Below, piece after piece: positions 6,676 to 44,100 of a stretch of 64,000 bases of DNA (the stretch's first letter is position 1; each line of letters begins with the position of its first letter). Position numbers and translations under genes: made by a program. The DNA is taken from NCBI GenBank assembly GCA_049608025.1, contig JBMYXC010000013.1, one strand, 5' to 3'. Below the pieces are notes generated by a model, which was given only the letters and a program-made list of their open reading frames with translations, made no database searches and was not told the DNA's origin. Source of the stretch: Mycobacterium sp. GTDB lineage: Bacteria; Actinomycetota; Actinomycetes; Mycobacteriales; Mycobacteriaceae.

Positions 6676-8826
6676 GTGGTGTGCGGCGTCGTCGTCGCGC
6701 TGCGGGTCAGCGGACCGGCGCGTTGGTGGCGATTGCTTCTCGTGGTGGCGTTGGCGACTTTCCTGGTCGGCCATCTTCTCTGGTGGTCCAGCGGCGATGA
6801 GGCGGATGGCGGCTTGGTGGCGCCGGCAGTGCTGGTCGCGTATCTGGCATGCCAGGTGTTCATTCTCGCGTCGATGTATTTCCTGGTGCGGTCCACCGGG
6901 GGAGCGCGCAGACAGCGCGATACCGCGACGCAGAATTCCGCAGCCACGACGTTTCTTGACGGGGTGTTGGCGGCTGCGTCGTTCGTGGTCTTCATTTCAT
7001 TGGGTGACTTCAGCGCCCGATCGACGGTCGCACTGCCCCGCTCGGGAAGCTCGACGGTGGAGCTTGTTTACGCACTGGTGGAGCTGACCGCTGTGGTTGT
7101 GGCGGTGGTCATCACGATGAACTACCGCACAGACCGCCCGGGCCGGGGGAACGTGCTTCTGTTGGCCGCCGGCATCGTGACCTTGGCCTCGGCAGATCGG
7201 CTCGTGGCCTACTTCGAATTCATCGGTTCCGAGGGCGGTCAGCGGTGGGCTGCCATCGGTTTCGTTCTGGGCCCCCTGATGTTCGCCTATGCGATGCTCG
7301 ACCCGCCGGCCGCACGGCCGGCCGAGGCGCCGGATCGCCCCCGCCCCGGGGTGGACTGGGCGCAGCTCGCCCTGCCCTACATCGGCTTGCTGGGGATCGC
7401 ACTGCTCTTGGCGTTCCACCTGTTCATGGGTCGGCCGATCACTGGTTTCGTGATCTACATGGCGGTGGTGATGGCGCTGTTGGTCGCCGTCCGCCAGGTG
7501 GTGGCGATGCGTTCCCACCAGCTGTTGACTCAACGGCTCTACGCCGCCCAGCGCGCCCTGGAGCATCAGTTGCACACTGACGCGCTGACCGGGCTACCCA
7601 ATCGCCTGGCGTTCAGCCAACGGCTCGATGAAGCCCTGCGCGACGGCCGCTTCGTGTTGATCTTTGTCGATCTCGATGACTTCAAGGATGTGAACAGCCG
7701 GTTCGGGCATGCCGCCGGTGACGATCTGCTGCGTGCGGTGGGACAGCGCCTTGCGCGGTGCGTGAAAGACGCCGACACGGTGGCACGCGTCGGCGGTGAC
7801 GAGTTCGCGATCCTCATCGACGGCAGCAAGGAGGAACCCGATGTCGTTGCCGACCGGCTGCGGGTGGCGCTTCGGGTTCCTTTCCCCGTCCAGGGCTCCT
7901 CGGTGCGGGTGCGGGCCAGCATGGGCCTGGTCCGTCCAGGGGCGGACGGGCTGTCCCAGACATCCGACGACCTGTTGCGGCAGGCCGACATCTCGATGTA
8001 CGCGGGTAAACGCATCGGCAAGGACGCCGCGGTGATCTATCAACCAACCTCGGATGTCCGGGGGGATTTCCCGAATGCGCTGCGTGCGGCCGGCGACGGC
8101 ATCCCTGCCGGGTTCAGCCTGGTCTACCAGCCGATCGTGCGACTTCCCGACGGCGCACCGATGGCGGTCGAGGTGTTGGCGCGATGGACGGCGCCCAACG
8201 GAATCGACATCTCACCTGAGACCTTCGTGGCCGCTGCCGAAGCGGCTGGGCTCGGGGCCGATCTCGATGCGCTGGTGCTCGATCTGGCGTGCAGTGAGAT
8301 CCAAGCGGCCGGTATGAACATCGACTTCCACGTGAACATCGGCGCGGCGCGGCTGGGCAACCCCTACGTCGAGGAGTTCGTCCGCCAAACCCTGGCCCGG
8401 CATCGAGTCGAGCCGAGCCGGCTTGTCGTGGAGATCACCGAGACGGTGCCGATCGTCGACCTTGCCGCTGCTGCCGACCAGATCACCAGGCTGAATGCCT
8501 TTGGCGTACAGGTGGCATTGGATGACTTCGGTGCGGGGTGCAACTCGTTGATGTATCTTCATTCGCTGCCGGTGCAGGTCGTCAAGCTCGACCGCCGATT
8601 CGCCGCTGGGGTGGACCCCGAACAGGATCTCGCGCTGTATCGATCGATCATCCGACTGTGCGACGAGTTGGGAAAGGCCGTGGTCGTCGAGGGCGTCGAG
8701 TACGCGCCCCAGGCAGAGGCGCTCTTCAGCGCTGGATGCCGACTGGCGCAGGGGCACCTCTTCGGGAGCGCTGTACCCATCTCGGAACTGACTCTTGACC
8801 CAAAGACGCAGGGCGCGCTGATCTGA
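6676..8826 (+). CDS. Membrane-anchored diguanylate cyclase/phosphodiesterase (multi-TM + GGDEF + EAL); true start probably further upstream, near 6538
   Basis: DALTGLPNR, DLDDFKDVNSRFGHAAGD, intact GGDEF; EAL domain with YQPIV, EVL, EITE, DDFGAG, KLD, EGVE, QG. Confidence 0.93.
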   Translation: MVCGVVVALRVSGPARWWRLLLVVALATFLVGHLLWWSSGDEADGGLVAPAVLVAYLACQVFILASMYFLVRSTGGARRQRDTATQNSAATTFLDGVLAAASFVVFISLGDFSARSTVALPRSGSSTVELVYALVELTAVVVAVVITMNYRTDRPGRGNVLLLAAGIVTLASADRLVAYFEFIGSEGGQRWAAIGFVLGPLMFAYAMLDPPAARPAEAPDRPRPGVDWAQLALPYIGLLGIALLLAFHLFMGRPITGFVIYMAVVMALLVAVRQVVAMRSHQLLTQRLYAAQRALEHQLHTDALTGLPNRLAFSQRLDEALRDGRFVLIFVDLDDFKDVNSRFGHAAGDDLLRAVGQRLARCVKDADTVARVGGDEFAILIDGSKEEPDVVADRLRVALRVPFPVQGSSVRVRASMGLVRPGADGLSQTSDDLLRQADISMYAGKRIGKDAAVIYQPTSDVRGDFPNALRAAGDGIPAGFSLVYQPIVRLPDGAPMAVEVLARWTAPNGIDISPETFVAAAEAAGLGADLDALVLDLACSEIQAAGMNIDFHVNIGAARLGNPYVEEFVRQTLARHRVEPSRLVVEITETVPIVDLAAAADQITRLNAFGVQVALDDFGAGCNSLMYLHSLPVQVVKLDRRFAAGVDPEQDLALYRSIIRLCDELGKAVVVEGVEYAPQAEALFSAGCRLAQGHLFGSAVPISELTLDPKTQGALI

Positions 8827-13593: not shown

Positions 13594-15564
13594 TCAGGCC
13601 GCGGCCGGTGCTGGCACCCCGATCAGATATCCCTGCACCTGATCGACCCCCAGTTCGATGAGCCGAGTTAAAGTCTCGGCATTCTCGACGCCCTCGGCCG
13701 TGGTGACCAGCCCGAATTCCTTGGCGATGCGGACGATGATCTTCACCACCGATTCGTCTCGCTCGTTCGTCAGGAGGCCGCGAACGAAACTGATGTCAAT
13801 CTTCAGACTGTGCAGAGCAATCCTGCGCAGCTCGGTGAATGTGCCAAACCCAGTGCCGAAGTCGTCAAGGGCCACTTGGCATCCCAACAATTTCATCTCG
13901 TCTGAGAAGCGTTCGGCGATGTCCAGCGATGCCAGCGCGGCATGCTCGGTGATCTCGAAGGAAACCCGCCCGGTGAGATCACCCGCCCGCCGGAGTTCGC
14001 GGGTGATCGCGTCCATTGTCGACCGATCGCCGATGGAGTTGGCCGAAAGATTGACTGCGACATGACGGCCGGCCTGTGCCAACTCGATGCCCCGAGCCAC
14101 CATGAACTTGTCGATGAGTGGCATCATGCCGAACAGCTGTGCTTGCGGCAGGAAGCTGTCGGGAGCCATCACTTCGCCGTCGGACCCGACTAACCGGACG
14201 AGCAGTTCTTCTTCGATCAACATTGCCGTGCGCGCATCGACGATCGGCTGAGCGTATGCGACAAGGCGTCCATCGCTCATCGCCCGTGAAAGGAAATCTT
14301 CGAACTCAAGTTGTTCACGCAAGCGGTTTTCCAGGCGCTTACGCTCAGTGATGTCGGTGCTGATCATGCCGATCCCGGTGATCTGGCCCTGCCCGCTGTC
14401 GACCGGGAACACCTGGGCATCGACGGTCAACCGCTTACCGTCCATAGTCGCTTCGTGCTCGAACCTCGTGCTCTGACCGCCCAACGCACGCTCGTCGGCG
14501 TCCCCCAACTCCGCCAGCACATCCGACGGAAGCAACGCGTCTGCGGTTCGGCCCAAGACCTCGCCCGGATCATTGACGTCGACGAGGTCACAAAACGCTT
14601 GGTTGACGAGTTCGTAATGATGTTCACAGTCTCGTATCGAGATAGCACTGGGAACATTTGCCACTATCAATCGGATTCGCTCTTGGGCTTCCAATAGACG
14701 TTTCTGCTCCTGCTGGATCAGGTAGAAGGTGCCCACGCCGACGAGGATGGTGCTTACCGCTATCGCCAGGGCCCACGCCACATCGTCGCTCAGGCCGAGG
14801 TTCAGGAATGCCGCTCGTGACAACCCGATGAGGGTGGGAGGCCCGGCGAGGATGCCGACCATCTGAACCAGTGTCTTCCGATCGGGTCGGGCCAGCAGCC
14901 AGGCGAGCGGATTGCGGTCTGCGCGAGTCGCGAATGCAGCAGTTACCAGCAGCATCATGGCGGTAGCCGTCGAGATTCCCATGCCGGCTGATCGCGTGGC
15001 ACTGACGAGCGACAGAGATTCAAATATGTAGCTCGCGACGATGAAGTCCGGCAGGGCCGTCGCGGCCAGAAGGCTGAGCGTCCATGCCGCCGGGGCCCAC
15101 CGACGATCCAGACGGGTAAGCCCAACTGCCAGTGACAGCAGCAGCACCGAGGATGCCGTCTGGGGGCTGGGACGGCCAAGCAGGTACGGTTGCGCCGCTC
15201 GCACCGTTTCGGAGAACCACAGCTGATCCAGGCCGAACGAACTACCGGTCGCGTGCTCTGCGAGAAACACCAAGGCCAAGGCGCCGGCCGCTGCGGCCAA
15301 ACCGCACCCGACACCCACCCGGGCGCGTGACGGGCGCCCTGACTGCGCCAGGATCGCGATCCCCAACACCGCCACGAGCACGGCAGACCACGGCGCCATC
15401 GGTGGCCAGGACGAAAAGAACCGTGTCAACCGGTCGATGCCGGTCGCCCAGCCCAGCCAATTCGCCACTGCGATGACGAGCACCACACCGACGGCGGCGC
15501 GCGGCCACCACGCCAGCACCGCTTCCAATCGCCCAGGAGGGTGATTGGCGAAAGCCTCGGGCAC
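13594..15564 (-). CDS. Membrane protein with PAS domain and EAL phosphodiesterase domain (no GGDEF)
   Basis: Multiple TM helices; PAS/PAC ending DITERKR; EAL domain with QPIV, ELL.R, VNLS, EITE, DDFGTG, KID, EGVE, QGY; SD GGGGAGG 7 nt before the GTG. Confidence 0.92.
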   Translation of the reverse strand: MPEAFANHPPGRLEAVLAWWPRAAVGVVLVIAVANWLGWATGIDRLTRFFSSWPPMAPWSAVLVAVLGIAILAQSGRPSRARVGVGCGLAAAAGALALVFLAEHATGSSFGLDQLWFSETVRAAQPYLLGRPSPQTASSVLLLSLAVGLTRLDRRWAPAAWTLSLLAATALPDFIVASYIFESLSLVSATRSAGMGISTATAMMLLVTAAFATRADRNPLAWLLARPDRKTLVQMVGILAGPPTLIGLSRAAFLNLGLSDDVAWALAIAVSTILVGVGTFYLIQQEQKRLLEAQERIRLIVANVPSAISIRDCEHHYELVNQAFCDLVDVNDPGEVLGRTADALLPSDVLAELGDADERALGGQSTRFEHEATMDGKRLTVDAQVFPVDSGQGQITGIGMISTDITERKRLENRLREQLEFEDFLSRAMSDGRLVAYAQPIVDARTAMLIEEELLVRLVGSDGEVMAPDSFLPQAQLFGMMPLIDKFMVARGIELAQAGRHVAVNLSANSIGDRSTMDAITRELRRAGDLTGRVSFEITEHAALASLDIAERFSDEMKLLGCQVALDDFGTGFGTFTELRRIALHSLKIDISFVRGLLTNERDESVVKIIVRIAKEFGLVTTAEGVENAETLTRLIELGVDQVQGYLIGVPAPAAA

Positions 15565-16948: not shown

Positions 16949-17857
16949 TCAGTCGCGGAGCCGCACCAGTCGCGTCGTCGAACTCTCATCCAGTTCCACC
17001 ACATCGGATCGGGAGCGCAGGAAATCGCTGAAGGACTTGAAGCCCAGAGACTTTTCGCTGAACGATGGGTCCATCCGCTTCATTTGCGCCTTCACCGCGG
17101 AGTTGTGCAGCCAGTCGGCGTCGTCTTTCTCCAGGCCGATTCGCAGTGCGCGGGTGAGCAGACCGGTCGCGGCGGCCTGCGGATCCGGCGGCTCGGGCTC
17201 GCCGGTGATTTCGGGCTCCGCGGCCTTGGTCCGGCTGGAACGTCTTTTTGGTGTGGGTTTCTCCTCGGCTGCGTCGCCGGGGCCGGGAATGGGCTCGAAC
17301 ACCGGGACGCCGGGCAGCGCATCGTAGGTGACGAACTCGTCGCAGGCCGCCGCAAGCATGCGACTCGATGATCCGGCCACCCCGATACCCACCACGTAGC
17401 GGCCGAGGCGCTTGCACCGCTGGGCCAGCGCGATGTAGTCGGAGTCGCCGGCGACGATCACCACGTGCGTCAGGTCGGGCAACCGGAACATGTCTTCGAC
17501 CGCATCAACGGCCAGTCGGATGTCGGCCCCGTTCTTGCCATATGCCGCCGCCGGAAACAGCTGCACCAGATCGACCGCACGCCCCACCAGTTGCCCGCGG
17601 TATCCGGCATTGACCTCAGCGGACCAGTCGGCATAGGCGCGAGTCAGCACCAACGTGCCGAACGATGACGCAAAGTCGATGATCGCTCCGACATCGACGG
17701 TGGCAGGAGTGAGTCGGCCGGGGTCGTCGGCCAAGCCCTTCGCCTTGTCTTTCTGGAAGGAGTTGCGGCCGTTCACCTGGTCGTACCGCGAGATCACAAT
17801 GTTGTCGAAGTCGAGGTACACCGCAACGAGGGTCGCGCCGGATTCCGTCATGGCCAT
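16949..17857 (-). CDS. NYN domain protein with C-terminal OST-HTH/LOTUS domain
   Basis: VYLDFDN, RAYADW, KNGADIRLAVDA, VAGDSDY (PIN-like acidic residues); C-terminal VKAQMKRMDPSFSEKSLGFKSFSDFL. Confidence 0.9.
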   Translation of the reverse strand: MAMTESGATLVAVYLDFDNIVISRYDQVNGRNSFQKDKAKGLADDPGRLTPATVDVGAIIDFASSFGTLVLTRAYADWSAEVNAGYRGQLVGRAVDLVQLFPAAAYGKNGADIRLAVDAVEDMFRLPDLTHVVIVAGDSDYIALAQRCKRLGRYVVGIGVAGSSSRMLAAACDEFVTYDALPGVPVFEPIPGPGDAAEEKPTPKRRSSRTKAAEPEITGEPEPPDPQAAATGLLTRALRIGLEKDDADWLHNSAVKAQMKRMDPSFSEKSLGFKSFSDFLRSRSDVVELDESSTTRLVRLRD

Positions 17858-17984
17858 AGTTTGGTCGATCAGCGCCCCGATAGGCCTCGGTCGGCTGCGA
17901 TTCCCTCAAGTCAGCCCGCGGCGCTGCCGGTCGGCGCAACATGGGAACCGACACCGCAAGCACGTGGAGAGGTGCGTTCGCAGG

Positions 17985-19415
17985 GTGAGCAGTGCTCCGA
18001 CAGGTCTCGAGCCGACCAGACATACCGTGCTGGCCGAGGCGGACAGCGGCGCCTATCACTCGCTGCGGCAACGGCCGGTTACCCGCGCCGAGCGCTATGC
18101 GCTCGGCAAGGGCCTGCGACAACGAGTGCCGCGGCGATCGCTGGCGGAATGGGCGCCGCCGCCGAACCGGCCGGATCCCATCCAGCTCATCAACATCAGT
18201 CATCGTGGTCGCCTGGACCGGCTGATCCCGATTCGGGTGGGCCGAATGGTCGCCTCCCCGTACGGCTTTCTGCGAGGCACCGCGGTGGTCATGGCCGACG
18301 ATGTGGCGGGCCTGCCGTCGACCGGGATCACGCCGGTGGTTTGCGGCGATTCACACCTGGGCAACTTCGGCTTTTACGCATCGCCGCAACGTGACCTGGT
18401 GATCGACCTCAACGACTTCGACGAAGCGCACCCGGGTGGTTGGGAGTGGGACCTGCGGCGGTTGGTGGCCAGCATCTGGGTCGCGGGACGCCAGAACGGT
18501 GCAGGCGAGGACGAGTGCGCAGCAGCGGTGCGCTCCTGCGTCTCGGCGTACCGGGTGGAAGTGCGCCGGCTGGCCGAAGAGCCGCTGTTTTCGCGCTCTT
18601 TCACCCGGCTGGACGTCGACCGGTTGGCCGGTGAGACGGCGGGGCCGCTGGCCGACGAAGTGCGGCGGTCGGCCAAGCGTGCGCGCAACCGCACCAGCGA
18701 CCGTGCGCTACCCAGATTCACCCAGGAGGTCGACGGCATCCGCAGGATCGTCGAAGAGCCACCGTTGATCACGCGGGTGCCTTGGCGCGAAGCCGACGCC
18801 CTGGCCGAGGCGCTCGACGACTATCTGCAGACACTTTCCACGCACTGGCGCCGCGTACTGGGCGGCTACACCCTGCTCGATGTCGCGCACAAGGTGGTCG
18901 GGGTGGGCAGCGTCGGTTTGCGCGCGTATGTGGCTCTGCTGGAAGGCTCTTCGGCCGAGGATGTGGTTTTCCTGCAACTCAAGCAAGCTCGCCGCTCGGT
19001 GCTGGCGCGCTATGTGCACGGCGAGTCCGCCTTGCACGCGCATCAGGGCCAGCGGGTTGTTGAGTACCAACAAGCGCTGCAGACGGTCAGCGACCCGCTG
19101 TTGGGTTGGACGACCGTGGATGGGTTGCAGTACTACGTGCGCCAGTTTCGCAACATGAAGGGCACGATCCCGCTGGATGCCATGGACCCCAAGGCGCTGA
19201 TCGACTACGCGGGCGTGGTCGGTCAACTGCTGGCCAAAGGTCATGCGCGGACCAGCGGTGCCTCGATGATCGCCGGTTATCTCGGCCACTCAGAACGGGT
19301 GGACGACGCACTGTGCCTGTTCGCGCGTCGTTACGCCGACCAAACCGAAGCTGACCACGCGGCGTTGGTGGCGGCTGTCGATATCGGGAGGTTGCCGGTC
19401 GAGCGCGGAGTCTAG
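17985..19415 (+). CDS. DUF2252 family protein
   Basis: GTG at 17985 after GGAGAGG; LIPIRVGRMVASPYGFLRG.A.VMA.D, CGDSHLGNFG, DLNDFDEA..G.WEWDLRRL, GVGSVG, YVRQF. Confidence 0.9.
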   Translation: MSSAPTGLEPTRHTVLAEADSGAYHSLRQRPVTRAERYALGKGLRQRVPRRSLAEWAPPPNRPDPIQLINISHRGRLDRLIPIRVGRMVASPYGFLRGTAVVMADDVAGLPSTGITPVVCGDSHLGNFGFYASPQRDLVIDLNDFDEAHPGGWEWDLRRLVASIWVAGRQNGAGEDECAAAVRSCVSAYRVEVRRLAEEPLFSRSFTRLDVDRLAGETAGPLADEVRRSAKRARNRTSDRALPRFTQEVDGIRRIVEEPPLITRVPWREADALAEALDDYLQTLSTHWRRVLGGYTLLDVAHKVVGVGSVGLRAYVALLEGSSAEDVVFLQLKQARRSVLARYVHGESALHAHQGQRVVEYQQALQTVSDPLLGWTTVDGLQYYVRQFRNMKGTIPLDAMDPKALIDYAGVVGQLLAKGHARTSGASMIAGYLGHSERVDDALCLFARRYADQTEADHAALVAAVDIGRLPVERGV

Positions 19416-19486: not shown

Positions 19487-19492
19487 TACATT
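19487..19492 (+). promoter_or_regulatory. -10 hexamer TACATT for leaderless resolvase-GGDEF gene
   Basis: TANNNT 6 nt before the ATG at 19499. Confidence 0.5.
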
Positions 19493-19498
19493 TCACCA

Positions 19499-20386
19499 AT
19501 GGCGACTTCAACAATGGCTGCTGACGGCACCCTCGTTGGATACGCGCGCTGCTCCCTGGATCCGCAGGACCTTGCTGCGCAGCAACAACGACTTCGCGAA
19601 CTGGGTGTCGCTGATGATCAAATCCATTTCGACCAGGGACTCACCGGCACCGACACAGAACGCCCGGGCCTGGATCAGGCGCTGGCCGCAGTGCGGAAAG
19701 GTGACACGCTGGTGTCGCCGAAGCTGGACCGGCTCGCCCGATCGGTACCCGATGCTTGCGCCATCGGCGAGGGACTTGCCAAGCGCGGCATCAGTTTGTC
19801 ACTGGGCGGACAGGTCTACGACCCAACCCAACCGGTGGGCAAGATGTTCTTCGACGTCCTGGATGCCGTCGCCGAATTCGAGGTCGACCTGCTCCGAACG
19901 CGCTCCCTGGAAGGTCTCAGCGGACTGACGACCATGACCGAGACGCGCGCACGCCTTGAGTTCGCGCTCAACAGCCCCCGGCGTCATGGACCTCACCTGG
20001 GCGTCTTGCTCTGCGGCATCGACGATTTCTGGACGATCGTCGAAACCTGGGGTGAGGCCTTCGGAAACGTCGTGCTCGCCACCCTGGCCATGAGGTTCCG
20101 GCAATGTGTGCGCCAAGGCGACACCGTTGGGCGCTTCGGCTGGGACGAAGCATTGGTGCTGCTTCCCGGCGTCCACAGCCTGGACAATGTCGCTCAGGTC
20201 GCGGAGAAGATTCGTGGCCGCGCCGAAGAGCCGATCCATCATGCGGGCGTGACGATTCACGCCACGTTGAGTATCGGTGTCACCCTGGCCGTTCCCGGCG
20301 AGTCGGTGGCGTCGCTGAAGACGCGGGCGGAGTCAGCGATGAATTCTGTCAAACAGGCCGGCGGGAATGCTTCCAGCTGCATCTGA
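19499..20386 (+). CDS. Serine recombinase (resolvase) catalytic domain fused to a degenerate GGDEF domain; no HTH
   Basis: Residues 13-139: VGYARCS, RPGL..AL..VR.GDTL..KLDRLARS, GKMFF.VL..VAEFE. Residues 140-295: LSGL, LLCGIDDF, RQGDTVGRFGWDEA, TLSIGV, AESAM..VKQAGGN. Confidence 0.85.
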   Translation: MATSTMAADGTLVGYARCSLDPQDLAAQQQRLRELGVADDQIHFDQGLTGTDTERPGLDQALAAVRKGDTLVSPKLDRLARSVPDACAIGEGLAKRGISLSLGGQVYDPTQPVGKMFFDVLDAVAEFEVDLLRTRSLEGLSGLTTMTETRARLEFALNSPRRHGPHLGVLLCGIDDFWTIVETWGEAFGNVVLATLAMRFRQCVRQGDTVGRFGWDEALVLLPGVHSLDNVAQVAEKIRGRAEEPIHHAGVTIHATLSIGVTLAVPGESVASLKTRAESAMNSVKQAGGNASSCI

Positions 20387-20422: not shown

Positions 20423-20782
20423 TCAACTGCAGCAGTTGGGGTTCAACACCGCGTACAGGGCGCCGACTGCATCGGGGGCCGGTCGGTGGTAGACGTGCAT
20501 GCCGCGTCGATCGGAGTCGACGAAGCCGGCCCGACGCAGTTGTGCCACATGGTGACTCACGGTGGATTCGCTGAGTCCGAGCGCGGCCGCGAGGTCGCCG
20601 CTGTTCTCCGCGCCGGCCGAGGAACTGAACAGCAATGACATGATCTTCACCCTCGCCGGGTCGGCGAGTGCCTTGAGCCGCAGCGCCACCTCAAGCGCAT
20701 CGCCGTCGCTCATAGGTCCGGCGGCCAAGGGTGCACAGCACACCGGCGCGGAGATGTCGATGGTCGGCAAGGTCTTGGGCAC
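20423..20782 (-). CDS. ArsR/SmtB family regulator (Rv2640c-like)
   Basis: MPKTLPTIDISAPVCCAP, LKALADPARVKIMS, LSESTVSHH..QLRRAG.V...RRGM.V, C-terminal CC; -10 CAGAAT lies 6 nt before the GTG. Confidence 0.92.
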   Translation of the reverse strand: MPKTLPTIDISAPVCCAPLAAGPMSDGDALEVALRLKALADPARVKIMSLLFSSSAGAENSGDLAAALGLSESTVSHHVAQLRRAGFVDSDRRGMHVYHRPAPDAVGALYAVLNPNCCS

Positions 20783-20802
20783 GGCACCATTCTGCCACGG
20801 TG

Positions 20803-20861
20803 TTGACATATATCAAAAAGGTGGCATGGTGGCGGTAGCACGCCAATTCGATATAAGTCTC
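20803..20861. promoter_or_regulatory. Two putative ArsR operators between arsR and cadI
   Basis: Near-palindrome TTGACATATATCAA (20803-20816); TCGATATAAGTCTC (20848-20861) matches its reverse complement at 10 of 14 positions. Confidence 0.55.
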
Positions 20862-20879
20862 ACAGGTCCGGAGGTTCCC

Positions 20880-21329
20880 ATGTCCAGAGTTCAACTCGCC
20901 CTCAATGTCGACGATCTCGACCAGGCCATCACGTTCTACTCCAAGCTCTTCAACACCGCGCCCGCGAAGGTCAAGGACGGCTACGCCAACTTCGCGGTTG
21001 CCGAACCACCCCTCAAGCTGGTGCTCATCGAGAATCCGGGCAAGGGCGGCACCCTCAACCATCTCGGCGTCGAGGTAGCCAAAACAGAGACCGTGCATGC
21101 CGAGATCGACCGGCTGAGCGCCGCGGGCCTGTTCACCGAGGAGGAGATGAACACCACGTGTTGCTTCGCCACCCAGGACAAGGTGTGGGTCACCGGTCCG
21201 GCCGGTGAGAAGTGGGAGGTCTATACGGTGCTGACCGACTCCGACACCTTCGGTGCCAGCTCCGAACATGCCGAGGCGGGCGTGTGCTGTGGTGACACCG
21301 CCGCCGATACCGCGGACGCCTGCTGTTGA
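20880..21329 (+). CDS. cadI: ArsI/CadI family glyoxalase-fold metalloenzyme (Rv2641-like)
   Basis: MSRVQLALNVDDL..AI.FYSKLF, GYANFA, HLGVEV, TTCCFATQDKVWV..P.GE.WEVY. Confidence 0.92.
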   Translation: MSRVQLALNVDDLDQAITFYSKLFNTAPAKVKDGYANFAVAEPPLKLVLIENPGKGGTLNHLGVEVAKTETVHAEIDRLSAAGLFTEEEMNTTCCFATQDKVWVTGPAGEKWEVYTVLTDSDTFGASSEHAEAGVCCGDTAADTADACC

Positions 21330-21675: not shown

Positions 21676-21921
21676 ATGTCATTATCGGGCGGAAAGACGA
21701 CAATCAAGGTCGAGAAGCGCCTACGCGACAGAATTTCGGCGGCGGCCTCCGAAGAGCACCAAACCGTCCAGGTTTTCCTTGACGGGCTTCTTGCCGAACG
21801 CGAGCGTCGCCGACGGCTGGCCAGCGTCGCCGACGCATACGGCAGTGCTGGCGCGGTCACGCTAGGGGACTGGCGTGACGAAACCCACGAATGGGAAAGC
21901 GTCGAGGACAACAACGAATGA
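21676..21921 (+). CDS. Putative antitoxin (81 aa), partner of the PemK/MazF toxin
   Basis: N-terminal TTIKV..RLRDRI (RHH-like), acidic C-terminus DWRDETHEWESVED; ATGA overlap with the toxin; -10 CATACT lies 6 nt before the ATG. Confidence 0.8.
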   Translation: MSLSGGKTTIKVEKRLRDRISAAASEEHQTVQVFLDGLLAERERRRRLASVADAYGSAGAVTLGDWRDETHEWESVEDNNE

Positions 21922-22286
21922 CCGTCGGACTCGAACCCGGCACGGTCATCTGGGTCAGCATGGACCCAACGATTGGACGCGAACAAGCTGGCCGGCGGCC
22001 CGCGGTCGTGGTCGCATCCTCGGGCTACCTGGCCGCGGTACCCGAACTGGTCATTGTCGTGCCAGCCACGACAACCGACCGCGGCTGGCCTCACCACGTA
22101 GCGCTGAGCGGCCCATCGCTTGAACTGGCCCACCAGAGCTACGCCATGACCGAACAACCCCGCACCATCAGCAGACGGCGAATCTTCAACACCACCGGCC
22201 AAGTGGATGACACCTGCCTAGCCGCCATTCGCCGCTGGCTCGACGACTTCCTCCAACTACCTGAACCCCCCCGCAGTCTCGACTGA
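21918..22286 (+). CDS. mazF: PemK/MazF family endoribonuclease toxin
   Basis: G.VIWVSMDPTIGREQAGRRPAVVV, VVPATT, AMTEQPRTIS.RRI. Confidence 0.92.
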   Translation: MTVGLEPGTVIWVSMDPTIGREQAGRRPAVVVASSGYLAAVPELVIVVPATTTDRGWPHHVALSGPSLELAHQSYAMTEQPRTISRRRIFNTTGQVDDTCLAAIRRWLDDFLQLPEPPRSLD

Positions 22287-22360
22287 CCAGCTGAGACCGA
22301 CCCTAGACGCACTACGCTAACGTCAGTAGCATGGTGCCAAATAGCGTTAGGGTGACGTGG

Positions 22361-22945
22361 ATGTCTGTAGAGCACGAGCTGGAGCAGCTGCTTCATGACC
22401 GCTTCGAGATCACGCCGGCCGACTTCGCCGCCGCGCTGAGGCATCTGCCCGCGTCGCGGCCCTGGGCTGCAACACTCACCGAAACCGAAGCCCACCTGCT
22501 CGACGGCGTCGACTTCCCCGAGGACCGCGACGCCTTCGTCGCGGCCGGCGCCGAGATCGCCGGGAATACCGCCCACCTCGCCGTCACCGCATTCACCGCC
22601 GAAGAGGTCGCCAACGGACTGGGCATCGGCGCCTCACGCGTGCGCCAGAAGCGCCTCGCCGGCGAACTGTGGGCCATCCCGGACGGGCAGACCTGGATCT
22701 TCCCCATCCTGCAGTTCGAGACCGGCGACAATGGTGTCCCCGCCCGTCAGGTCCGCGGTCTCGACCAGGTGCTCAAGGCCCTTCCCGGCAATCTGCATCC
22801 CATCGCAGTAGCCGGGTTCCTGCGCACCCCCCAACCCGATCTGTTCCACGATCGCCCGATGACCCCGATCGAGTGGCTGCGCGGCGGCGGCGACATCGAT
22901 CGCGCAGTTACCGCAGCTGCCGCCGTCGACTGGTACACCGCGTGA
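22361..22945 (+). CDS. Putative antitoxin with HTH and Xre/MbcA-like C-terminus
   Basis: FTAEEVANGLGIGASRVRQ (HTH); C-terminal FLRTPQPDL....TPIEWL..GG; GTGA overlap with the RES gene. An alternative ATG lies at 22331. Confidence 0.75.
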   Translation: MSVEHELEQLLHDRFEITPADFAAALRHLPASRPWAATLTETEAHLLDGVDFPEDRDAFVAAGAEIAGNTAHLAVTAFTAEEVANGLGIGASRVRQKRLAGELWAIPDGQTWIFPILQFETGDNGVPARQVRGLDQVLKALPGNLHPIAVAGFLRTPQPDLFHDRPMTPIEWLRGGGDIDRAVTAAAAVDWYTA

Positions 22946-23586
22946 CGGTACGGCTGCCAGGCCCGCCCTCGGTTGCCGACCTCACTGCGATCGGAATTCG
23001 CGCCGAGGAGTACCGCACTCTCCCCACCGAGGAACTGTGGTGGCGAGTCCACCGCACGACGGGGCCTCATGTGCTGGCATGGAACGGCTTCCGTGAACAC
23101 GGCCCGCACCTGCGCTTCGACCTACACCCGCCACCAGCGCGCATCCATCCGGGGGTGGGCGTCTGGTACGGAGCCTGTGGGCCGCTTGCGTGCTTGGCCG
23201 AAGCCTTCCAAGCCACGCGCACCATCGACCGGCACCGCGGTGACCCCTACCTCACCGCGGTGGGGTTCGGGCGAGACCTTCAGCTGCTCGACCTCGCCAC
23301 CGACAGTGCCGGCTCCTGGCCCACCCGAGCTGGCGGCACCTTCGCACTCTCGACCGGCCCCCACTCCATCACCCAGCGTTGGGCCCGTCGAATCACCGAG
23401 GCGTTCCCCGCCCTCGATGGTCTGCACTACAACAGCCGCTTCGCCGGCCAACCGTGCGTCGCACTGTTCACCCCGGCTACCACGGCGATGCCGCGCCGCC
23501 CTGCGCTCTCCCTACCGCTGTCCCACCCGGGCCTCGCGATCCGAATTGACACGGCGGCAGGACGTCTCGGCTTCCTCACGCTCTGA
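22942..23586 (+). CDS. RES domain protein (putative NAD+-consuming toxin)
   Basis: R-E-S residues in WWRVHR, LAEAF and GLHYNSR; RFD.HP and VWYGA motifs. Confidence 0.88.
   Translation: MTVRLPGPPSVADLTAIGIRAEEYRTLPTEELWWRVHRTTGPHVLAWNGFREHGPHLRFDLHPPPARIHPGVGVWYGACGPLACLAEAFQATRTIDRHRGDPYLTAVGFGRDLQLLDLATDSAGSWPTRAGGTFALSTGPHSITQRWARRITEAFPALDGLHYNSRFAGQPCVALFTPATTAMPRRPALSLPLSHPGLAIRIDTAAGRLGFLTL

Positions 23587-35932: not shown

Positions 35933-35933
<1 letters not shown>
34923..35933 (-). CDS. Dihydroorotate dehydrogenase-like flavoprotein (DHOD-like; no catalytic Cys)
   Basis: YLGLQL.NPLVASASP, SLFEEQ, PVIGSIN, ELNIYS (in place of ELNxSCP), VAVKLSP, LFNRF.QPDID, ATTGV. Confidence 0.88.
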
Positions 35934-39510
<3,577 letters not shown>

Positions 39511-39514
<4 letters not shown>

Positions 39515-41142
39515 GTCGGCTCCCCGAACATGTCGATGGCGTGCACCGGACACTGATCGGCGCAGATTGCGCAACCCGTGCACTTGTCGTAATCGAACCG
39601 ATAGCGTTGCCCTTCGCCGAGTTTGATCACCGCCTCCTCGGGGCAGGCACCCAGACAGCCATCGCACTCGAAGCAGTTCCCACACGACAGGCACCGCTGG
39701 GCCTCGAAAGTCGCCGCGTCTGCCGACAGACCGCCGACGACCTCCTGGAAGCCCTGCACCCGCGTCGTGCTTCCCAGTTCAGGCTGCCGACGTTGCGCGG
39801 CGTCACCGAAGTACCAGAGGTGCAAAGACTCGAACGTCGCGGTCGGATGTTTGGCCGGCCGCTCCGCCGACGACCCGCGCAGCCAGGCGTCGATGTGATG
39901 AGCGGCCTTCTTCCCGTGGCCCACGCCGACGGTCACGGTGCGTTCGCTGGGCACCATGTCGCCGCCGGCGAACACACCCGGACAGCCGGTCATCAGTGTT
40001 GACGAGACCCGCACGCTGCCGTCGGCTTCGAACTCCACTCCCGGCAGGGTTTGCATGAATGCCGACTCCGTTTCCTGCCCGACCGCCATGATCAGCGTGT
40101 CGGTAGCCAGGGTCTCCATCCGGCCGGTCGGCCGAGGGTGCCCGGACTCGTCGAGTTCCATGACCTCGACCTGGATTTCGGGACCGTCGAAGGCGGTGAT
40201 GGTGCGCAGCCAGTGGATTTGGACTCCCTCTCGCTCGGCGTCCTCGGCTTCCTCGGTGTGGGCGGGCATCTGATCGCGGGTGCGGCGGTAGACGATGACC
40301 GCGTCCTCGGCGCCCAGGCGGCGGGCTACCCGCGCGGCGTCCATCGCGGTGTTGCCGCCCCCGTAAACCGTGACGTGACGGCCGACGGCCGGTTCCTCGC
40401 CGGAGGCGACGTCGTGCAGGAACGACACCGCATCGACCATCGTGCCGGCGTCGCGCGCCGGGATATCGACGCGTTTCGCCAGATGTGCGCCGACCGCGAC
40501 GAACACCGCGTCGAAGTCGCCCTCGTCGCGCTCGGCCGCCAGATCCTCGACTCGATGATCGCAGGTCAACCGCACGCCCATCGCCGCGATCCGGTGCAGT
40601 TCGGCATCCAACACGTCGCGGGGCAGGCGATAGCTCGGAATGCCGTACCGCATCATCCCGCCGGGGGCCGCCTCCGCATCCCGGACCTCGACGTCGTGGC
40701 CGAGGCGCCTGAGATGGTAGGCGGCGGACAGGCCACTGGGGCCTGCCCCGATGACCAAGACGCGCTTGCCCGTGGGGTGCGGCGCTGCTTCGAACACCCA
40801 GCCACGCTCCCGGGCCAGGTCGCCGAGGAAGCGCTCCACCGAATGGATCGCCACGGCGGAATCGAGATGGGCTCGGTTGCAGGCAGTTTCACACGGGTGA
40901 TAGCAGACCCGACCGTGGATGGCGGCGAAGGGGTTGTCCGCGACGAGCTGACGCCATGCGGCTTCGTGCCGCCCGGCAGTAGCATGTGCCAGCCAGGCCT
41001 GGATGTTCTCTCCGGCCGGGCAACCGGCATTGCAGGGCGGCAGCAGATCCACGTACACCGGTCGGCGCGCGCGCACCGGGCCGGCTCGAGAGCGCCCATG
41101 GGCAAGATCGGCGAGTGGTGCGACGTCATCGGATCCGGTCAT
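39511..41142 (-). CDS. GltD/PreT-like FAD and Fe-S NAD(P)H oxidoreductase with C-terminal 2x[4Fe-4S] domain
   Basis: PPCNAGCPAG, GRVCYHPCETAC, IGAGPSGLSAA, GIPSYRLP, GGGNTAMD..YRR, RCLSCGNCFECDGC..ACP, CTGCAICADQCP. Confidence 0.9.
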
Positions 41143-41144
41143 CG

Positions 41145-44100
41145 TCAACCCGGGAAACGGACGGTGGTTCCCGGCATCAGTTGAACGACCTGACCGCGGC
41201 ACTCCACCTCGATACCGGCGGCATCACGTGGATCCACGCTGATGATCACGCCCTTCCCGCTGACCCGCAGGTGCAGGTGCAGCCCACGGTAGTGAATCGG
41301 TATCGCCAGCACGCCAAGCGATTCCGGCCAGTGCGGAGAGAGGATGAGGCGATCGGAACGGGTCTCCAGCCCGGTGAAGCACCGTTGCATGAGGTCGACG
41401 GTGCCCGCCATGGCCGCCAGGTGAACCCCTTCGGACGTGGTGCCGCCCTGAATATCGGAGACATCGGATTTCAGTGCATGCCGGAAGAACTCCAGGGCCC
41501 GCTCGCGGTTGGCCCTGGCCAGTACCCAGGTGTGCACGACGCCGCTGAGCGTGGACCCGTGCGAGGTGCGGGCCAGGTAGTAGTCCACCATCTCGGGCAC
41601 CTGCTCGCGCAGGAGGCGGTAACCGAGCCGGTCGAGTATCTCGCGCAGCTCATCTGCCGACAGCAGGTAGAGCAACATGAGCGCGTCGGCCTGCTTGGAG
41701 GCTTTGTATCGGTTCACGTCGTCGTTCTCGGCCTCCAGGATGCGGTCCAGCCGCTGGATGTTGCCGTACTGCCGGCGAAGGCGGTCCCAATCCAGTTCCG
41801 CCAGATCGCCGTAGCCCTCGAACTGGCTGATGACGCCATCGTGGAACGGGACGTACATCCGCCTGCTGACCTCTTCCCAGTGCGCGAGTTCCTTGTTGGG
41901 CAACCCGAGTGACTCCAGCAGGTCGAGGCGGTTGGGCAGCGGTAGCAGGTTGAGCGCTTCGATGGCGCGCATGATCACCCAGACCGCCATCACGTTGGTG
42001 TACGCATTGTTGTCGATGCCGTCGTAGGGGGCGTCGGGGTAGCCGGAGTGAAATTCGTCGGGCCCGATGACGCCGTTGATGACGAAGCGTGCCCGCTCTT
42101 CGTCGTAGCTGGACAGGCTGACGAAGAAGCGTGCCACCTCGGCGATCAACTCGGCGCCGTAGTCGATCAGGTAGGCGAGGTCGCCGGTGACCTGGTAGAA
42201 CTTCCAGGCGCTGTAGGCAACGGCGATACCGATGTGGTGTGCGCGTGCGCTGGCGTCGGGGTTCCACCGGCCGCTGCGCGGATTGAGGTGCAGCCGTTGG
42301 CTTTCCTCACGTCCGTCGCTGCCGGATTGCCAGGGGAACATCGCGCCCGAATGGCCGGCTGCGAGGGCGGCCTGCCGGGCCTCGGGCAGGCGCCGGTAAC
42401 GGTAGCCCAGCAGGGACCGGGTGACCATCGGCAACCTCAGGTTGAGCACCGGGAAGATGAACAATTCGTCCCAGAAGATGTGGCCGCGATAGGCCTCACC
42501 GTGCAACCCGCGGGCCGGCACCCCGGCGTCGAGGTCGGCGGTATTCGGCGACACCGTCTGCAGCAGGTGCAGCAGATGCAGGCGCAGGATCCTTACCTCG
42601 TCGGTGAAGTCGTCGAATTCGATGGACAATCGCTCCCACAGATGCGTCCAGTCGGTCACATGTCCGGCGAGCAGCTCGGCGAAACGGGGCAGCCGAGTGA
42701 CCAGGCGCTGAGCGTCGACACCGGGTTCGGAGATCGCCACGTCACGTCCGGTGTACACGGTGACGACCTTCTCGACCGTCACCTCCTCGCCGATCGACTG
42801 CCGCACCGCGATGTCGTGGCCGACCTCGGCATCCCGCTCGAATAGTTGAAAGGTCGCCGGGACAGGCACGCCGTCACGCCACACGGTGTTTCGCGCGGCC
42901 ATGGCGATGGGGATGCGCGACTGGTTGGTCTGCGCGGTCAGCAGGACCGCATCATCGGCGATCCTCCGCGTGTCTATTGATCCGAGGTGCTCGTTGGCCA
43001 GATCCCGGTAGCGCTCGACCAGCGAGTTCGTCACATTTCCGTCCAGGGTCGAACGAAACTCGATCGTCCCGGACCAGTCCTCGGCCAGCACCGTCGTCTC
43101 GAGCGCACCGACGTGGGGGAGGTGCATCGCCACGAACCGGCGTTGCGTCAGCGAGCTCGTCCGGCCGGCGTCATCGCGGAAGCGAACCTTGCGAGTCAGC
43201 ACCGCGCCGCGAAGATCGAGGGTCTGCCGGTAGGAAAGCACGGTGACTTCGTCGATGTCGAACCAGTCGCCGTCGTCGATACGGAAGGTCAACGCAAGCC
43301 AGTTGGGCAGATTCACCAAACTCTCGTTGTCGATCTCGGTGCCCGACACGTTGTCGACCAGCCGATTGAATACCCCGGCTGCGTAGGTGCCCGGATAGTG
43401 CACCTGCGAGGCCTTCGACTCGGGGGCGGCCCCACGGGTGGCGAAGTACCCGTTTCCCACCGTGCACAACGCCTCCCGGAGCTTCTCGTTCTGCGGTTCG
43501 TAGCCGTCGAAGACGTAGTCCCACGCCTCGCCTGAGGCCTGCTGCTTGTAAGCCAGCCACTGGGAACCGCGCTGGATGAACTCGCGCACCTGATCGGGGC
43601 TTTGCAGGGTGAAGTGGGCAGCCGTCCTGCGGTTGCCGTCCTCGTCGCTTCTGACCACGATCCCGATACCGTCGAATTGCACTGCGTCAAAGGCATCTTC
43701 GTCGGTGAGGTCATCGCCGATGTAGATCGGGAGCAGGGAACCCGACGGGTCGATGCGGTCACGGATCCAGGCCAGTGTGGTGCCCTTGTCCCAGTCGAGG
43801 TCGGGCCGCAGCTCGACGAGCTTTCGGCCGCTGGTGACGCGTAGACCCGCCCGTGCCCCCAGCTGGTGTGCCGCAGAAACGATTTCAGCGACGCGTTCGG
43901 GTGCGACCTCGCGATAGTGCACCGCGACGGCGAAGCGCTTGTGCTCGACGCGCAGTCCCGGAACCTGGGCCAGGCTCTGGCGCAGATCGGCGGCGGCCTG
44001 CTCGAGAATGGGGACGAATACCGCTGCCTCCTCGTTGCAGTGATAGGTGCCGTCCGGCTCGGTCAACTCGAAGCCGTGGCTGCCCGCGTACCACAGGCCT

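What the first reader, a model, noticed from the sequence alone, without database searches (positions are those of the whole stretch)
19487..20386. Serine resolvase fused to a catalytically dead, I-site-retaining GGDEF domain: candidate c-di-GMP-controlled recombinase or recombinase regulator
Seen in the sequence: a continuous 295-aa ORF. Residues 1-139 form a complete small serine-recombinase catalytic domain with the nucleophile and catalytic set intact (Y15-A-R17-C-S19; D77-R78-x-x-R81; helix E AEFE128). Where the HTH DNA-binding domain should be, the ORF switches (near nt 19916, EG/LSGL) into a full GGDEF fold. Its cyclase site is destroyed: GGDEF reads GWDEA, the first metal Asp is Gly, and NDxxGH/GD reads VETWGE/GN. 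The allosteric RxxD I-site (R205-Q-G-D208) is kept at the canonical spacing. A TANNNT -10 lies 6 nt before the ATG, which suggests leaderless expression rather than debris. Established: dead GGDEF domains with RxxD act as c-di-GMP receptors (PelD, PopA), and serine recombinases need a DNA-binding domain or partner. Inference: second-messenger-gated DNA cleavage or recombination using a partner for targeting, or a ligand-controlled subunit that poisons or activates other resolvases. I know of no described protein with this architecture.
Basis: partly seen in the sequence, partly recalled or inferred. Interest (0 to 1): 0.88.

Follow-up and report, generated by a model that had tools for sequence, protein, structure and literature searches.

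The report
Resolvase fused to dead GGDEF domain
A small, conserved and unstudied family of mycobacterial proteins joins the DNA-cutting domain of a resolvase to an inactivated c-di-GMP cyclase domain that keeps its c-di-GMP-binding site, and it is more likely a second-messenger sensor than a free-standing recombinase.

Summary
Window 19499..20386 (+) encodes a 295-aa protein with a serine-recombinase catalytic domain (aa 13-139) joined in frame to a GGDEF domain (aa 140-291).

The fusion is not an assembly accident. About 25 protein clusters (64-96% identity) share the same junction. They include intact copies in cultured Mycolicibacterium sp. ELW1 and Mycobacterium sp. SA01. They form a single 50%-identity cluster among 1.84 billion representatives.

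Both halves are under purifying selection (median dN/dS 0.24 and 0.27). A TANNNT -10 hexamer 6-7 nt before the start codon is kept in all 13 loci examined.

The resolvase half comes from plasmid-type actinobacterial resolvases, cut at the position of gamma-delta G129. The GGDEF half comes from mycobacterial membrane-PAS-GGDEF cyclases. Resolvase helix E replaces the cyclase's stalk helix.

The cyclase active site is destroyed, while the I-site block VRQGDTVGR is unchanged.

The six key recombinase catalytic residues are kept. However, there is no DNA-binding domain, the protein has become strongly acidic, two Arg residues invariant in canonical relatives are replaced, and no recombination sites or conserved partner genes were found.

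Best reading: a c-di-GMP receptor built on a resolvase-derived oligomerisation domain. Function is untested.

The parts
19487..19492 (+). -10 hexamer TACATT (TANNNT), 6 nt upstream of the ATG; inferred leaderless promoter
   Evidence: Sequence. All 13 homologous loci have a TANNNT hexamer 6-7 nt before the ATG/GTG. Positions 1, 2 and 6 are invariant and positions 3-5 vary, while sequence further upstream is unrelated. In mycobacteria TANNNT is centred 7-12 bp upstream of the TSS (PMC3898074).
19499..20386 (+). Complete ORF, 295 aa including stop: resolvase-GGDEF fusion
   Evidence: The exact protein is present in the public collection on 3 contigs.
19492..19521 (+). 15-nt tandem duplication (TTCACCAATGGCGAC / TTCAACAATGGCTGC). 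It creates the ATG at 19499 at the ancestral distance from the -10 hexamer; the ancestral ATG is at 19514.
   Evidence: Most homologues start at the position of Met6.
19535..19915 (+). Serine-recombinase catalytic domain, aa 13-139, with Y15, R17, S19, D45, R55, D77, R78, R81, E128 and R135
   Evidence: Pfam PF00239. About 73% mean identity (maximum 87%) to 88 canonical HTH_7 resolvases over this domain, and 76% to P0026 by tblastn. The crucial residues are those defined in PMC2794168.
19553..19555 (+). Codon of Ser19, equivalent to the Ser10 nucleophile of Tn3/gamma-delta resolvase
   Evidence: Ser is present in 22 of 22 homologues that cover the position.
19832..19915 (+). Helix E (aa 112-139), truncated at the equivalent of gamma-delta G129. 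This is the most constrained stretch of the N-terminal half.
   Evidence: AF2 predicts a helix at 112-137. The junction was mapped against canonical resolvases. The lowest pN/pS windows cover residues 103-142.
19916..20371 (+). Degenerate GGDEF domain, aa 140-291
   Evidence: Pfam PF00990. It was compared with six parental cyclases and with PleD. Foldseek matches GGDEF structures at RMSD of about 2 Å.
20111..20122 (+). I-site R205-Q-G-D208
   Evidence: R, G and D are invariant in 23 of 23 sequences, and VRQGDTVGR is identical to the parental cyclases.
20138..20152 (+). Degenerate signature G214-W-D-E-A218 in place of GG(D/E)EF
   Evidence: W appears in 20 of 23 sequences and D in 3 of 23 at the second Gly position. 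A218 is invariant.
13594..15564 (-). Context: PAS-EAL protein (putative c-di-GMP phosphodiesterase), four genes upstream. The arrangement is syntenic in the 76%-identical orthologue loci.
6676..8826 (+). Context: GGDEF-EAL protein, 716 aa

Best explanation
SHOWN. This is one member of a single-origin, chromosomal protein family restricted to Mycobacteriaceae-like Actinomycetota. An in-frame event replaced everything after helix-E residue G139 (gamma-delta G129) of a plasmid-type small serine recombinase. That removed the end of helix E, the minor-groove arm and the HTH. In their place is the GGDEF domain of a mycobacterial membrane-PAS-GGDEF cyclase, joined at its 'LTGL' turn. Resolvase helix E therefore sits where the cyclase's coiled-coil stalk (S-helix) sat. 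Afterwards the cyclase active site decayed, while the RxxD inhibitory site and helix E stayed the most constrained parts.

INFERRED. [quoted passage not shown] Through helix E, this changes the dimer/tetramer state or the exposed surface of the resolvase-derived domain. That domain acts as a receiver-like oligomerisation and output module. It signals by protein-protein contact, possibly with DNA-bound serine recombinases or another partner. It does not act as an autonomous site-specific recombinase.

The gene is transcribed from its own -10 element as a leaderless mRNA.
For: Single origin and narrow range:
- The junction is identical in all 23 aligned members.
- Only one 50%-identity representative (P0014) matches both halves among 1.84 billion proteins.
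- Members occur in Mycobacterium/Mycolicibacterium MAGs and in cultured ELW1 and SA01.
- The setting is chromosomal, for example between ino1/PhoX and a luciferase-like gene in a 6.24-Mb chromosome.

Parentage:
- The N-terminal half averages 73% identity (maximum 87%) to canonical HTH_7 resolvases, and diverges exactly after G139.
- Those relatives are plasmid-borne.
- The C-terminal half is 48-54% identical to roughly 600-aa TM-PAS-GGDEF proteins with intact GGDEI. Their S-helix aligns with helix E.

Selection:
- Median omega is 0.24 for the N-terminal half and 0.27 for the C-terminal half over 78 pairs.
- The lowest pN/pS lies over helix E/junction (103-142) and the I-site hairpin (193-232). 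The highest lies over the former A-site (173-202) and the C-terminus.

A-site lost: the positions of PleD D327, K332, N335, H340, G369, F372, Y439, R446 and N299/R300 are all changed.

I-site kept: R205, G207 and D208 are invariant, and VRQGDTVGR is identical to the active parents. The receptor class is defined in the literature (PMC3509222).

Not a stand-alone recombinase:
- There is no HTH or arm.
- Catalytic-domain charge is -7 versus -1, and full-length charge -8 versus +8.
- 40 of 103 positions that are at least 95% conserved in canonical resolvases are relaxed, including the fixed changes R53T and R87C.
- D111Q lies at the gamma-delta G101 position, where dimer-interface activating mutations cluster (PMC2602789).
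- The clade that lost Arg17 (the crucial R8 equivalent) still has omega_N 0.14.
- There are no repeats, no resolvase paralogue in the window, no conserved neighbour and no defence-system match.

Receiver-like analogy: the best full-length Foldseek matches are the REC-stalk-GGDEF regulators PleD, WspR and DgcR, aligned over about 320-350 columns that span both domains.

c-di-GMP link: EAL or GGDEF-EAL genes lie within about 13 kb in the window and in several other contexts.

Promoter.
Against: - The six residues crucial for Tn3 resolvase catalysis (Y6, R8, S10, D36, R68, R71) are each kept in at least 90% of members, while 40 of 103 canonical-invariant positions are not (Fisher p = 0.048; p = 0.005 for ten active-site residues). 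This suggests the active-site pocket is still used, which a pure scaffold role does not explain.
- The position of PleD R390 is Lys, although the active parents also have Lys there.
- No binding, oligomerisation or expression data exist. The only runs found look like DNA.
- The AF2 inter-domain geometry is uncertain: pTM is 0.55, and the end of helix E has pLDDT below 50.
- The copy in the M. aichiense genome carries a frameshift, so the gene may be dispensable in some lineages.
- The association with EAL/GGDEF genes was not tested against a genomic background.
Confidence: 0.45

Rival explanations
1. c-di-GMP-gated active enzyme. The resolvase domain still cleaves or rejoins DNA through Ser19. 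A separate protein supplies targeting, or there is little sequence specificity. c-di-GMP at the I-site switches the dimer-to-tetramer activation step.
For: - All six crucial catalytic residues are retained above background (PMC2794168).
- Purifying selection acts on the N-terminal half.
- Fusion-specific substitutions at the start of helix E (D111Q at the G101 position) fall where activating mutations map.
- Engineered recombinases show that the catalytic domain works with a foreign DNA-binding module (PMC2602789; zinc-finger recombinase abstracts).
Against: - No DNA-binding module is present, and helix E is cut before its DNA-contacting end.
- The protein is acidic, with full-length charge -8 versus +8 in canonical relatives.
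- The canonical-invariant residues R53 and R87 are lost.
- Arg17 is replaced by Ser or Cys in P0018/P0019, yet omega is 0.14 there.
- No partner gene is conserved across at least seven contexts, and no repeats flank the gene.
Confidence: 0.2
2. Ligand-controlled decoy subunit. The DBD-less protein forms mixed dimers or tetramers through helix E with canonical plasmid or transposon resolvases. Their catalytic domains are 73-87% identical to the fusion's. This would poison or modulate multimer or cointegrate resolution, for example as a host control on mobile elements.
For: - Helix E is the most constrained segment.
- The closest relatives are plasmid-borne resolvases that are widespread in Actinomycetota and beyond.
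- The gene is chromosomal and solitary.
Against: - No canonical resolvase is present in the 64-kb window, and co-occurrence in the same genomes was not shown.
- Fixed changes on helix E (D111Q, N119D, F124V/I, T136S) suggest the interface has diverged from the canonical one.
- There is no match to known defence systems.
Confidence: 0.15
3. The protein has no c-di-GMP role. The GGDEF half would be a structural or protein-interaction domain, like degenerate GGDEF domains that do not bind c-di-GMP, or the gene would be a slowly decaying chimera.
For: - Omega of about 0.25 is only moderate.
- One cultured genome carries a frameshifted copy.
- Many formerly invariant positions are relaxed in both halves.
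- There are no functional data.
Against: - Intact ORFs persist across dS of 0.4-1.1 in at least 13 loci.
- The I-site block is the longest fully conserved stretch of the C-terminal half, while the surrounding A-site decays.
- The promoter is conserved.
Confidence: 0.15
4. It is still a diguanylate cyclase with an unusual active-site motif.
For: - Some databases name members 'diguanylate cyclase'.
- Non-canonical motifs such as AGDEF can be active (PMC3974145 abstract).
- D216 and R212 are retained.
Against: At least eight substrate-, metal- or transition-state-binding positions are lost. These include the second Gly (replaced by W or D), F372A, D327, K332, N335, H340 and R446. That region also shows the highest pN/pS.
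Confidence: 0.03

Closest known systems
Small serine recombinases (gamma-delta/Tn3 resolvase, Hin/Gin invertases), and specifically the actinobacterial plasmid 'recombinase family' resolvases with an HTH_7 domain (e.g. WP_041452392.1 of Hoyosella pAS9A-1)
   Same: Same catalytic-domain fold and sequence: PF00239, mean 73% (up to 87%) identity to the actinobacterial group. Same YxRxS nucleophile motif, D-R-x-x-R, and E/R residues of helix E.
   Different: - The last turns of helix E, the arm and the HTH are absent.
- The protein is acidic instead of basic.
- The canonical-invariant changes R53T and R87C, and changes at the helix-E N-terminus, are fixed.
- The gene is chromosomal and solitary, with no adjacent res-like sites.
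Degenerate-GGDEF c-di-GMP receptors with an intact I-site (PopA of Caulobacter, SgmT and ActA of Myxococcus; PelD-type I-site receptors)
   Same: The A-site is degenerate. RxxD sits five residues before the former GGDEF motif and is conserved across the family. The class definition is in PMC3509222.
   Different: The partner domain is a serine-recombinase catalytic domain rather than REC, a kinase, GAF or TM domains. Ligand binding has not been shown here.
REC-stalk-GGDEF response regulators (WspR, PleD, DgcR)
   Same: Overall layout: a five-stranded alpha/beta domain, a long dimerising helix, then a GGDEF domain carrying an I-site. These are the best full-length structural matches. Sequence matches to WspR and PleD begin inside helix E.
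   Different: The N-terminal domain is not a receiver: there is no Response_reg match and no phospho-acceptor Asp. The cyclase is dead.
Mycobacterial membrane-PAS-GGDEF diguanylate cyclases (e.g. in Mycolicibacterium sp. P1-5, locus L017; P0124)
   Same: This is the probable donor lineage of the C-terminal half. Identity is 48-54%, and the VRQGDTVGR, LLPG, AEKIR and SIG blocks are identical.
   Different: These proteins keep GGDE(I/M), DxDxFKxIND and GH/GD, and they carry TM and PAS sensor modules. The fusion has none of these.

Membership tests
Small serine recombinase (resolvase/invertase) | Catalytic domain of the PF00239 family | tested here: met
   E 1e-30 and 107 bits against a cut-off of 23.3. 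PDB matches are Gin/Hin and gamma-delta resolvase.
Small serine recombinase (resolvase/invertase) | Crucial catalytic residues Y6, R8, S10, D36, R68, R71 (Tn3 numbering; PMC2794168) | tested here: met
   Y15, R17, S19, D45, R78 and R81 are present in the window protein. Each is kept in at least 90% of the family. R17 is S or C in P0018/P0019.
Small serine recombinase (resolvase/invertase) | C-terminal helix-turn-helix DNA-binding domain, with the arm and a full helix E | tested here: not met
   There is no HTH_7 or other HTH hit. Similarity to canonical relatives ends after G139, the equivalent of gamma-delta G129.
Small serine recombinase (resolvase/invertase) | Cognate recombination sites (res, or inverted or direct crossover sites) near the gene | tested here: not met
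   Only low-identity chance repeats were found in 16.5-23.5 kb. Homology between loci stops at the -10 hexamer and at the stop codon.
Small serine recombinase (resolvase/invertase) | DNA cleavage and strand exchange via a phosphoseryl intermediate | not testable with these tools
   This needs biochemistry.
Diguanylate cyclase (active GGDEF) | GGDEF-domain fold (PF00990) | tested here: met
   E 2e-27. Foldseek matches GGDEF structures at RMSD of about 2 Å.
Diguanylate cyclase (active GGDEF) | GG(D/E)EF signature plus the metal- and GTP-binding residues (PleD D327, K332, N335, D344, R366, E370, K442, R446) | tested here: not met
   The signature is GWDEA. D327 is G, K332 is W, N335 is V, H340 is E, D344 is N and R446 is G in the window protein. 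The same positions are lost or variable across the family.
Degenerate-GGDEF I-site c-di-GMP receptor (PopA/SgmT class) | Degenerate A-site | tested here: met
Degenerate-GGDEF I-site c-di-GMP receptor (PopA/SgmT class) | Intact RxxD five residues upstream of the signature, conserved among homologues | tested here: met
   R205-Q-G-D208. R, G and D are invariant in 23 of 23 sequences. K237 occupies the PleD R390 position, as it does in the active parents.
Degenerate-GGDEF I-site c-di-GMP receptor (PopA/SgmT class) | Specific c-di-GMP binding that depends on the I-site | not testable with these tools
   This needs DRaCALA, ITC or similar, with R205A/D208A controls.
REC-GGDEF response regulator (WspR/PleD) | Receiver domain with a phospho-acceptor Asp | tested here: not met
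   The N-terminal domain is PF00239, with no Response_reg hit. The resemblance is only at the level of fold and layout.

The most novel reading that the evidence does not exclude
Second-messenger-gated serine-recombinase chemistry. In this reading, c-di-GMP binding to the dead GGDEF domain switches on or off a still-active Ser19 site. The active site would then cut or rearrange DNA with a partner, cut it non-specifically, or act on another phosphodiester substrate. This would directly couple c-di-GMP signalling to genome rearrangement or DNA cleavage in mycobacteria.
Probability: 0.15. Interest if true: 0.9.

Novelty: new variant of a known kind. Interest (0 to 1): 0.6.

Why it matters
Few c-di-GMP effectors are known in mycobacteria, and no c-di-GMP receptor built on a recombinase domain has been described in the papers searched.

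The family is a natural experiment in domain exaptation. A mobile-element resolvase domain replaced the signalling helix of a cyclase, and it has been kept under selection for a long time without any DNA-binding module.

If the best explanation is right, it adds a new input/output combination to the degenerate-GGDEF receptor class. It would also show that helix E of serine recombinases can serve as a signalling stalk. That is relevant to engineered, ligand-switchable recombinases.

If the active-enzyme reading is right, it would link a second messenger directly to DNA cleavage or rearrangement.

Intact copies in cultured strains (Mycolicibacterium sp. ELW1, WP_149383225.1; Mycobacterium sp. 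SA01, WP_370507239.1) make it directly testable.

Tried and rejected
- **Assembly or pseudogene artefact: rejected.** The exact protein occurs on several contigs, and about 25 clusters share the junction. Omega is well below 1.
- **Mobile-element cargo with its own sites: rejected.** No transposase is adjacent in most loci, repeats are at chance level, and homology ends at the -10 hexamer and at the stop codon.
- **Plasmid origin of the window region: not supported.** Only the ArsR-CadI cassette matches plasmids, at 73-80% identity.
- **Independent resolvase-GGDEF fusions elsewhere: none among the top 150 representatives.** P0129, P0216 and P0255, which seemed to run past the junction, are ordinary resolvases with out-of-frame tails.
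- **Expression evidence: none obtained.** The two runs returned under 'rna' are of unknown kind. X5 shows flat, genome-like depth. Sequences of cultured relatives could not be submitted.
- **Defence-system membership: no PADLOC hit**.
- **Literature on the architecture:** 25 papers mention both words, and none of the 15 listed titles concerns such a fusion.
- **Conserved partner gene: none** across at least seven different neighbourhoods.
- **Frameshifted copies.** L053 is a generally frameshift-ridden assembly, so it was dismissed. The single frameshift in M. aichiense is either recent or a sequencing error.
- **AF2 domain orientation: not used**, because pTM is 0.55.
Full report
**1. The observation**

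Window 19499..20386 (+) is a 295-aa ORF. Pfam assigns residues 13-141 to the resolvase catalytic domain (PF00239, E 1e-30). It assigns residues 142-290 to GGDEF (PF00990, E 2e-27). The best solved-structure relatives by sequence are the Gin/Hin invertases and gamma-delta resolvase for the first half. GGDEF domains of diguanylate cyclases match the second half.

These are YARCS with S19, D77-R78-x-x-R81, AEFE128, the switch after E138-G139 at nt 19916, GWDEA at 214-218 and RQGD at 205-208. The same holds for its alignment to cyclase active-site positions. The reported start, 19487, is the first base of the TACATT hexamer, which lies 6 nt before the ATG.

**2. It is a family, not an accident**

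A search of 5.8 billion proteins returned 22 clusters carrying both Pfam domains. They are 64-96% identical to the query and about 290 aa long. They come from Mycobacterium, Mycolicibacterium and unclassified Actinomycetia assemblies. All share the same junction.

A scan of GTDB species genomes with the junction-plus-GGDEF half found four further loci. Cluster look-ups showed intact 291-aa copies in cultured Mycolicibacterium sp. ELW1 (WP_149383225.1) and Mycobacterium sp. SA01 (WP_370507239.1). They are annotated only as 'recombinase family protein' or 'diguanylate cyclase domain-containing protein'.

A profile of the family was searched against 1.84 billion 50%-identity representatives. Only one representative (P0014) matched both halves. 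All the other best hits matched one half only. The family therefore has a single origin and a narrow range. No paper describing the architecture was found.

**3. Where the two halves came from**

The N-terminal half averages 73% identity (maximum 87%) to a tight group of canonical actinobacterial resolvases that carry an HTH_7 domain. These are plasmid genes. The unusual-looking 'YARCS' and 'FEVDLLR' motifs are shared with that group. Similarity to it ends exactly after R-x-R-E-G139, equivalent to gamma-delta G129. The last turns of helix E, the minor-groove arm and the HTH are therefore all missing.

The C-terminal half is 48-54% identical to roughly 600-aa mycobacterial membrane-PAS-GGDEF proteins. 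Those have an intact GGDE(I/M) motif and the same VRQGDTVGR I-site block. In those proteins a coiled-coil stalk ('QLERLARFDxLTGLxNR') precedes the domain. In the fusion, resolvase helix E ('FEVDLLRTRSREGLTGLTT') occupies that place.

AF2 predicts both domains with confidence (mean pLDDT 80). It predicts a helix at 112-137 whose end and linker are uncertain, as expected for a monomer model. The best full-length structural matches are REC-stalk-GGDEF regulators (PleD, WspR, DgcR), aligned across both domains.

**4. Selection**

Thirteen coding sequences were compared. Nei-Gojobori dN/dS has a median of 0.24 for the resolvase half and 0.27 for the GGDEF half, over 78 pairs with dS of about 0.25-1.1.

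A sliding window puts the strongest constraint on helix E and the junction (residues 103-142). The I-site/β-hairpin region (193-232) is equally constrained. The weakest constraint is over the former cyclase active site (173-202) and the C-terminus.

**5. The cyclase is dead and the I-site is kept**

The comparison used six parental cyclases and PleD numbering. The fusion family has lost or randomised D327, K332, N335, H340, the second Gly of GGDEF (W in 20 of 23, D in 3 of 23), F372 (Ala in all), Y439, R446 and the N299/R300 pair.

In contrast, R205, G207 and D208 are invariant. The nine-residue block around them is identical to that of the active parents. K237 occupies the PleD R390 position, as it does in the parents.

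A degenerate A-site combined with an intact I-site is the published signature of GGDEF-type c-di-GMP receptors such as PopA and SgmT (PMC3509222). Binding itself remains an inference.

**6. Is the recombinase half still a recombinase?**

Evidence for:
- The six residues found crucial for Tn3 resolvase catalysis (Y6, R8, S10, D36, R68, R71; PMC2794168) are each kept in at least 90% of members.
- By contrast, 40 of the 103 positions that are at least 95% conserved in canonical relatives are no longer kept (Fisher p = 0.048; p = 0.005 with ten active-site residues).

Evidence against:
- There is no DNA-binding domain.
- The catalytic domain's net charge has moved from a median of -1 to -7. The whole protein has moved from +8 to -8.
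- Two Arg residues invariant in canonical relatives are replaced: R53T in all members, and R87C in all but two.
- D111Q sits at the gamma-delta G101 position at the N-terminus of helix E. Dimer-interface 'activating' mutations cluster there (PMC2602789).
- The P0018/P0019 clade has replaced Arg17 by Ser or Cys. It nevertheless shows omega of 0.14 in this half.
- No repeats that could be crossover sites flank the gene.
- No paralogous resolvase lies in the window.

Seven or more different neighbourhoods share no partner gene:
- DUF2252/ArsR-CadI in the window and its orthologues
- an ESX-1-flanking site
- DUF5078/amidohydrolase
- AurF/EAL-fragment/Usp
- a DUF445 giant gene
- an EAL/CHASE3 site
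- ino1/PhoX/luciferase-like in complete chromosomes

There is no match to known defence systems.

**7. Expression signal**

In all 13 loci a TANNNT hexamer lies 6-7 nt before the ATG/GTG. T, A and T at positions 1, 2 and 6 are invariant, and positions 3-5 vary. Sequence further upstream is unrelated, and homology stops again at the stop codon.

This matches the mycobacterial -10 element, which is centred 7-12 bp upstream of transcription starts. It also fits the abundance of leaderless mRNAs in mycobacteria (PMC3898074).

In the window, a 15-nt tandem duplication has created a new ATG (19499) at the ancestral spacing.

No RNA data could be obtained. The window sequence occurs in seawater metagenomes and in one small run with flat, genome-like depth.

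**8. Interpretation**

The anatomy and history are well supported. For function, the best-supported reading is a c-di-GMP receptor in which the resolvase-derived domain and helix E form a receiver-like oligomerisation and output module. I put this at about 0.45.

The rivals are:
- an active, partner-targeted, ligand-gated recombinase or nuclease (0.2)
- a decoy subunit for canonical resolvases (0.15)
- no c-di-GMP role, or slow decay (0.15)
- a residual cyclase (0.03)

The retained catalytic hexad is the main observation that the favoured model does not explain.

EAL and GGDEF-EAL genes lie near the fusion in the window (13594..15564 and 6676..8826) and in several other contexts. This is suggestive, but it was not tested against a genomic background.

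**9. Novelty**

Both domains and the receptor principle are known. Their combination is not described in the papers searched, and it is confined to one young family. I rate it a new variant of a known kind. It would be of clear interest to c-di-GMP and recombinase specialists, and it can be tested directly in cultured strains.

Noticed in passing
P0121 / MCH9728905.1 (not in the window): A 708-aa Wzz-GNVR-AAA_31 polysaccharide tyrosine autokinase has a last ~176 residues derived from this fusion family. They comprise the helix-E tail 'FATLAGFEVDQLRKRSQEGLTGLTT' plus the dead GGDEF, with RQGD intact and the signature further degraded to GPHET. It is seen on one 3.7-kb MAG contig only. It could be a real secondary fusion that reuses the module, or a chimeric assembly.
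   Followed up: partly
window 6676..8826 (+) and 13594..15564 (-): A GGDEF-EAL protein (716 aa) and a PAS-EAL protein (656 aa) lie within 13 kb upstream of the fusion. EAL or GGDEF-EAL genes also lie near the fusion in L044 (an EAL fragment directly upstream), L053 and L043. The enrichment was not tested statistically.
   Followed up: partly
window 19492..19521: A 15-nt tandem duplication (12 of 15 bases identical) adds five N-terminal residues (MATST). It places a new ATG at the conserved 6-nt distance from the -10 hexamer. A related run (X5) carries two substitutions in the spacer.
   Followed up: yes
L051 8001..8875 (Mycolicibacterium aichiense CP192571.1): The orthologue is split into resolvase (169 aa) and GGDEF (126 aa) ORFs by one frameshift near residue 160. 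The downstream frame is otherwise intact and conserved. This is either a recent inactivation or a sequencing error. The locus is syntenic with the intact ELW1-type copy.
   Followed up: partly
window 20423..21329: An ArsR-CadI (Rv2640c/ArsI-CadI type) cassette lies immediately downstream. It is 73-80% identical to cassettes on Mycolicibacterium and Rhodococcus plasmids. On a Rhodococcus ruber plasmid a donor-type canonical resolvase sits next to an ArsR/cadmium cassette, with a cutinase gene nearby. This resembles the window/L004 neighbourhood.
   Followed up: no
window 21676..23586: Two probable toxin-antitoxin pairs lie downstream. One is a small ORF plus a PemK/MazF-like toxin (21676..22286). 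The other is an unassigned 204-aa ORF plus a RES-domain protein (22331..23586).
   Followed up: no
window 16949..19415: A NYN/OST-HTH (LabA-like) protein and a DUF2252 protein lie upstream. The listed DUF2252 ORF (586 aa from a GTG) is about 115 aa longer than the 471-aa orthologues called elsewhere, and it overlaps the NYN gene. Its true start is therefore probably further downstream.
   Followed up: no
L008 (CAXMSM010000018.1): A 3.9-kb contig carries an 87%-identical copy of the fusion and is binned in an 'uncultured Gammaproteobacteria' MAG. Given the sequence and the DUF2252 context, this is most likely a mis-binned mycobacterial contig.
   Followed up: no
window 35933..47215: Several very large ORFs on the minus strand (1253, 1225 and 798 aa) were seen in the ORF list and not examined. 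Homologue loci L001 and L045 place the fusion near ESX-1 genes.
   Followed up: no
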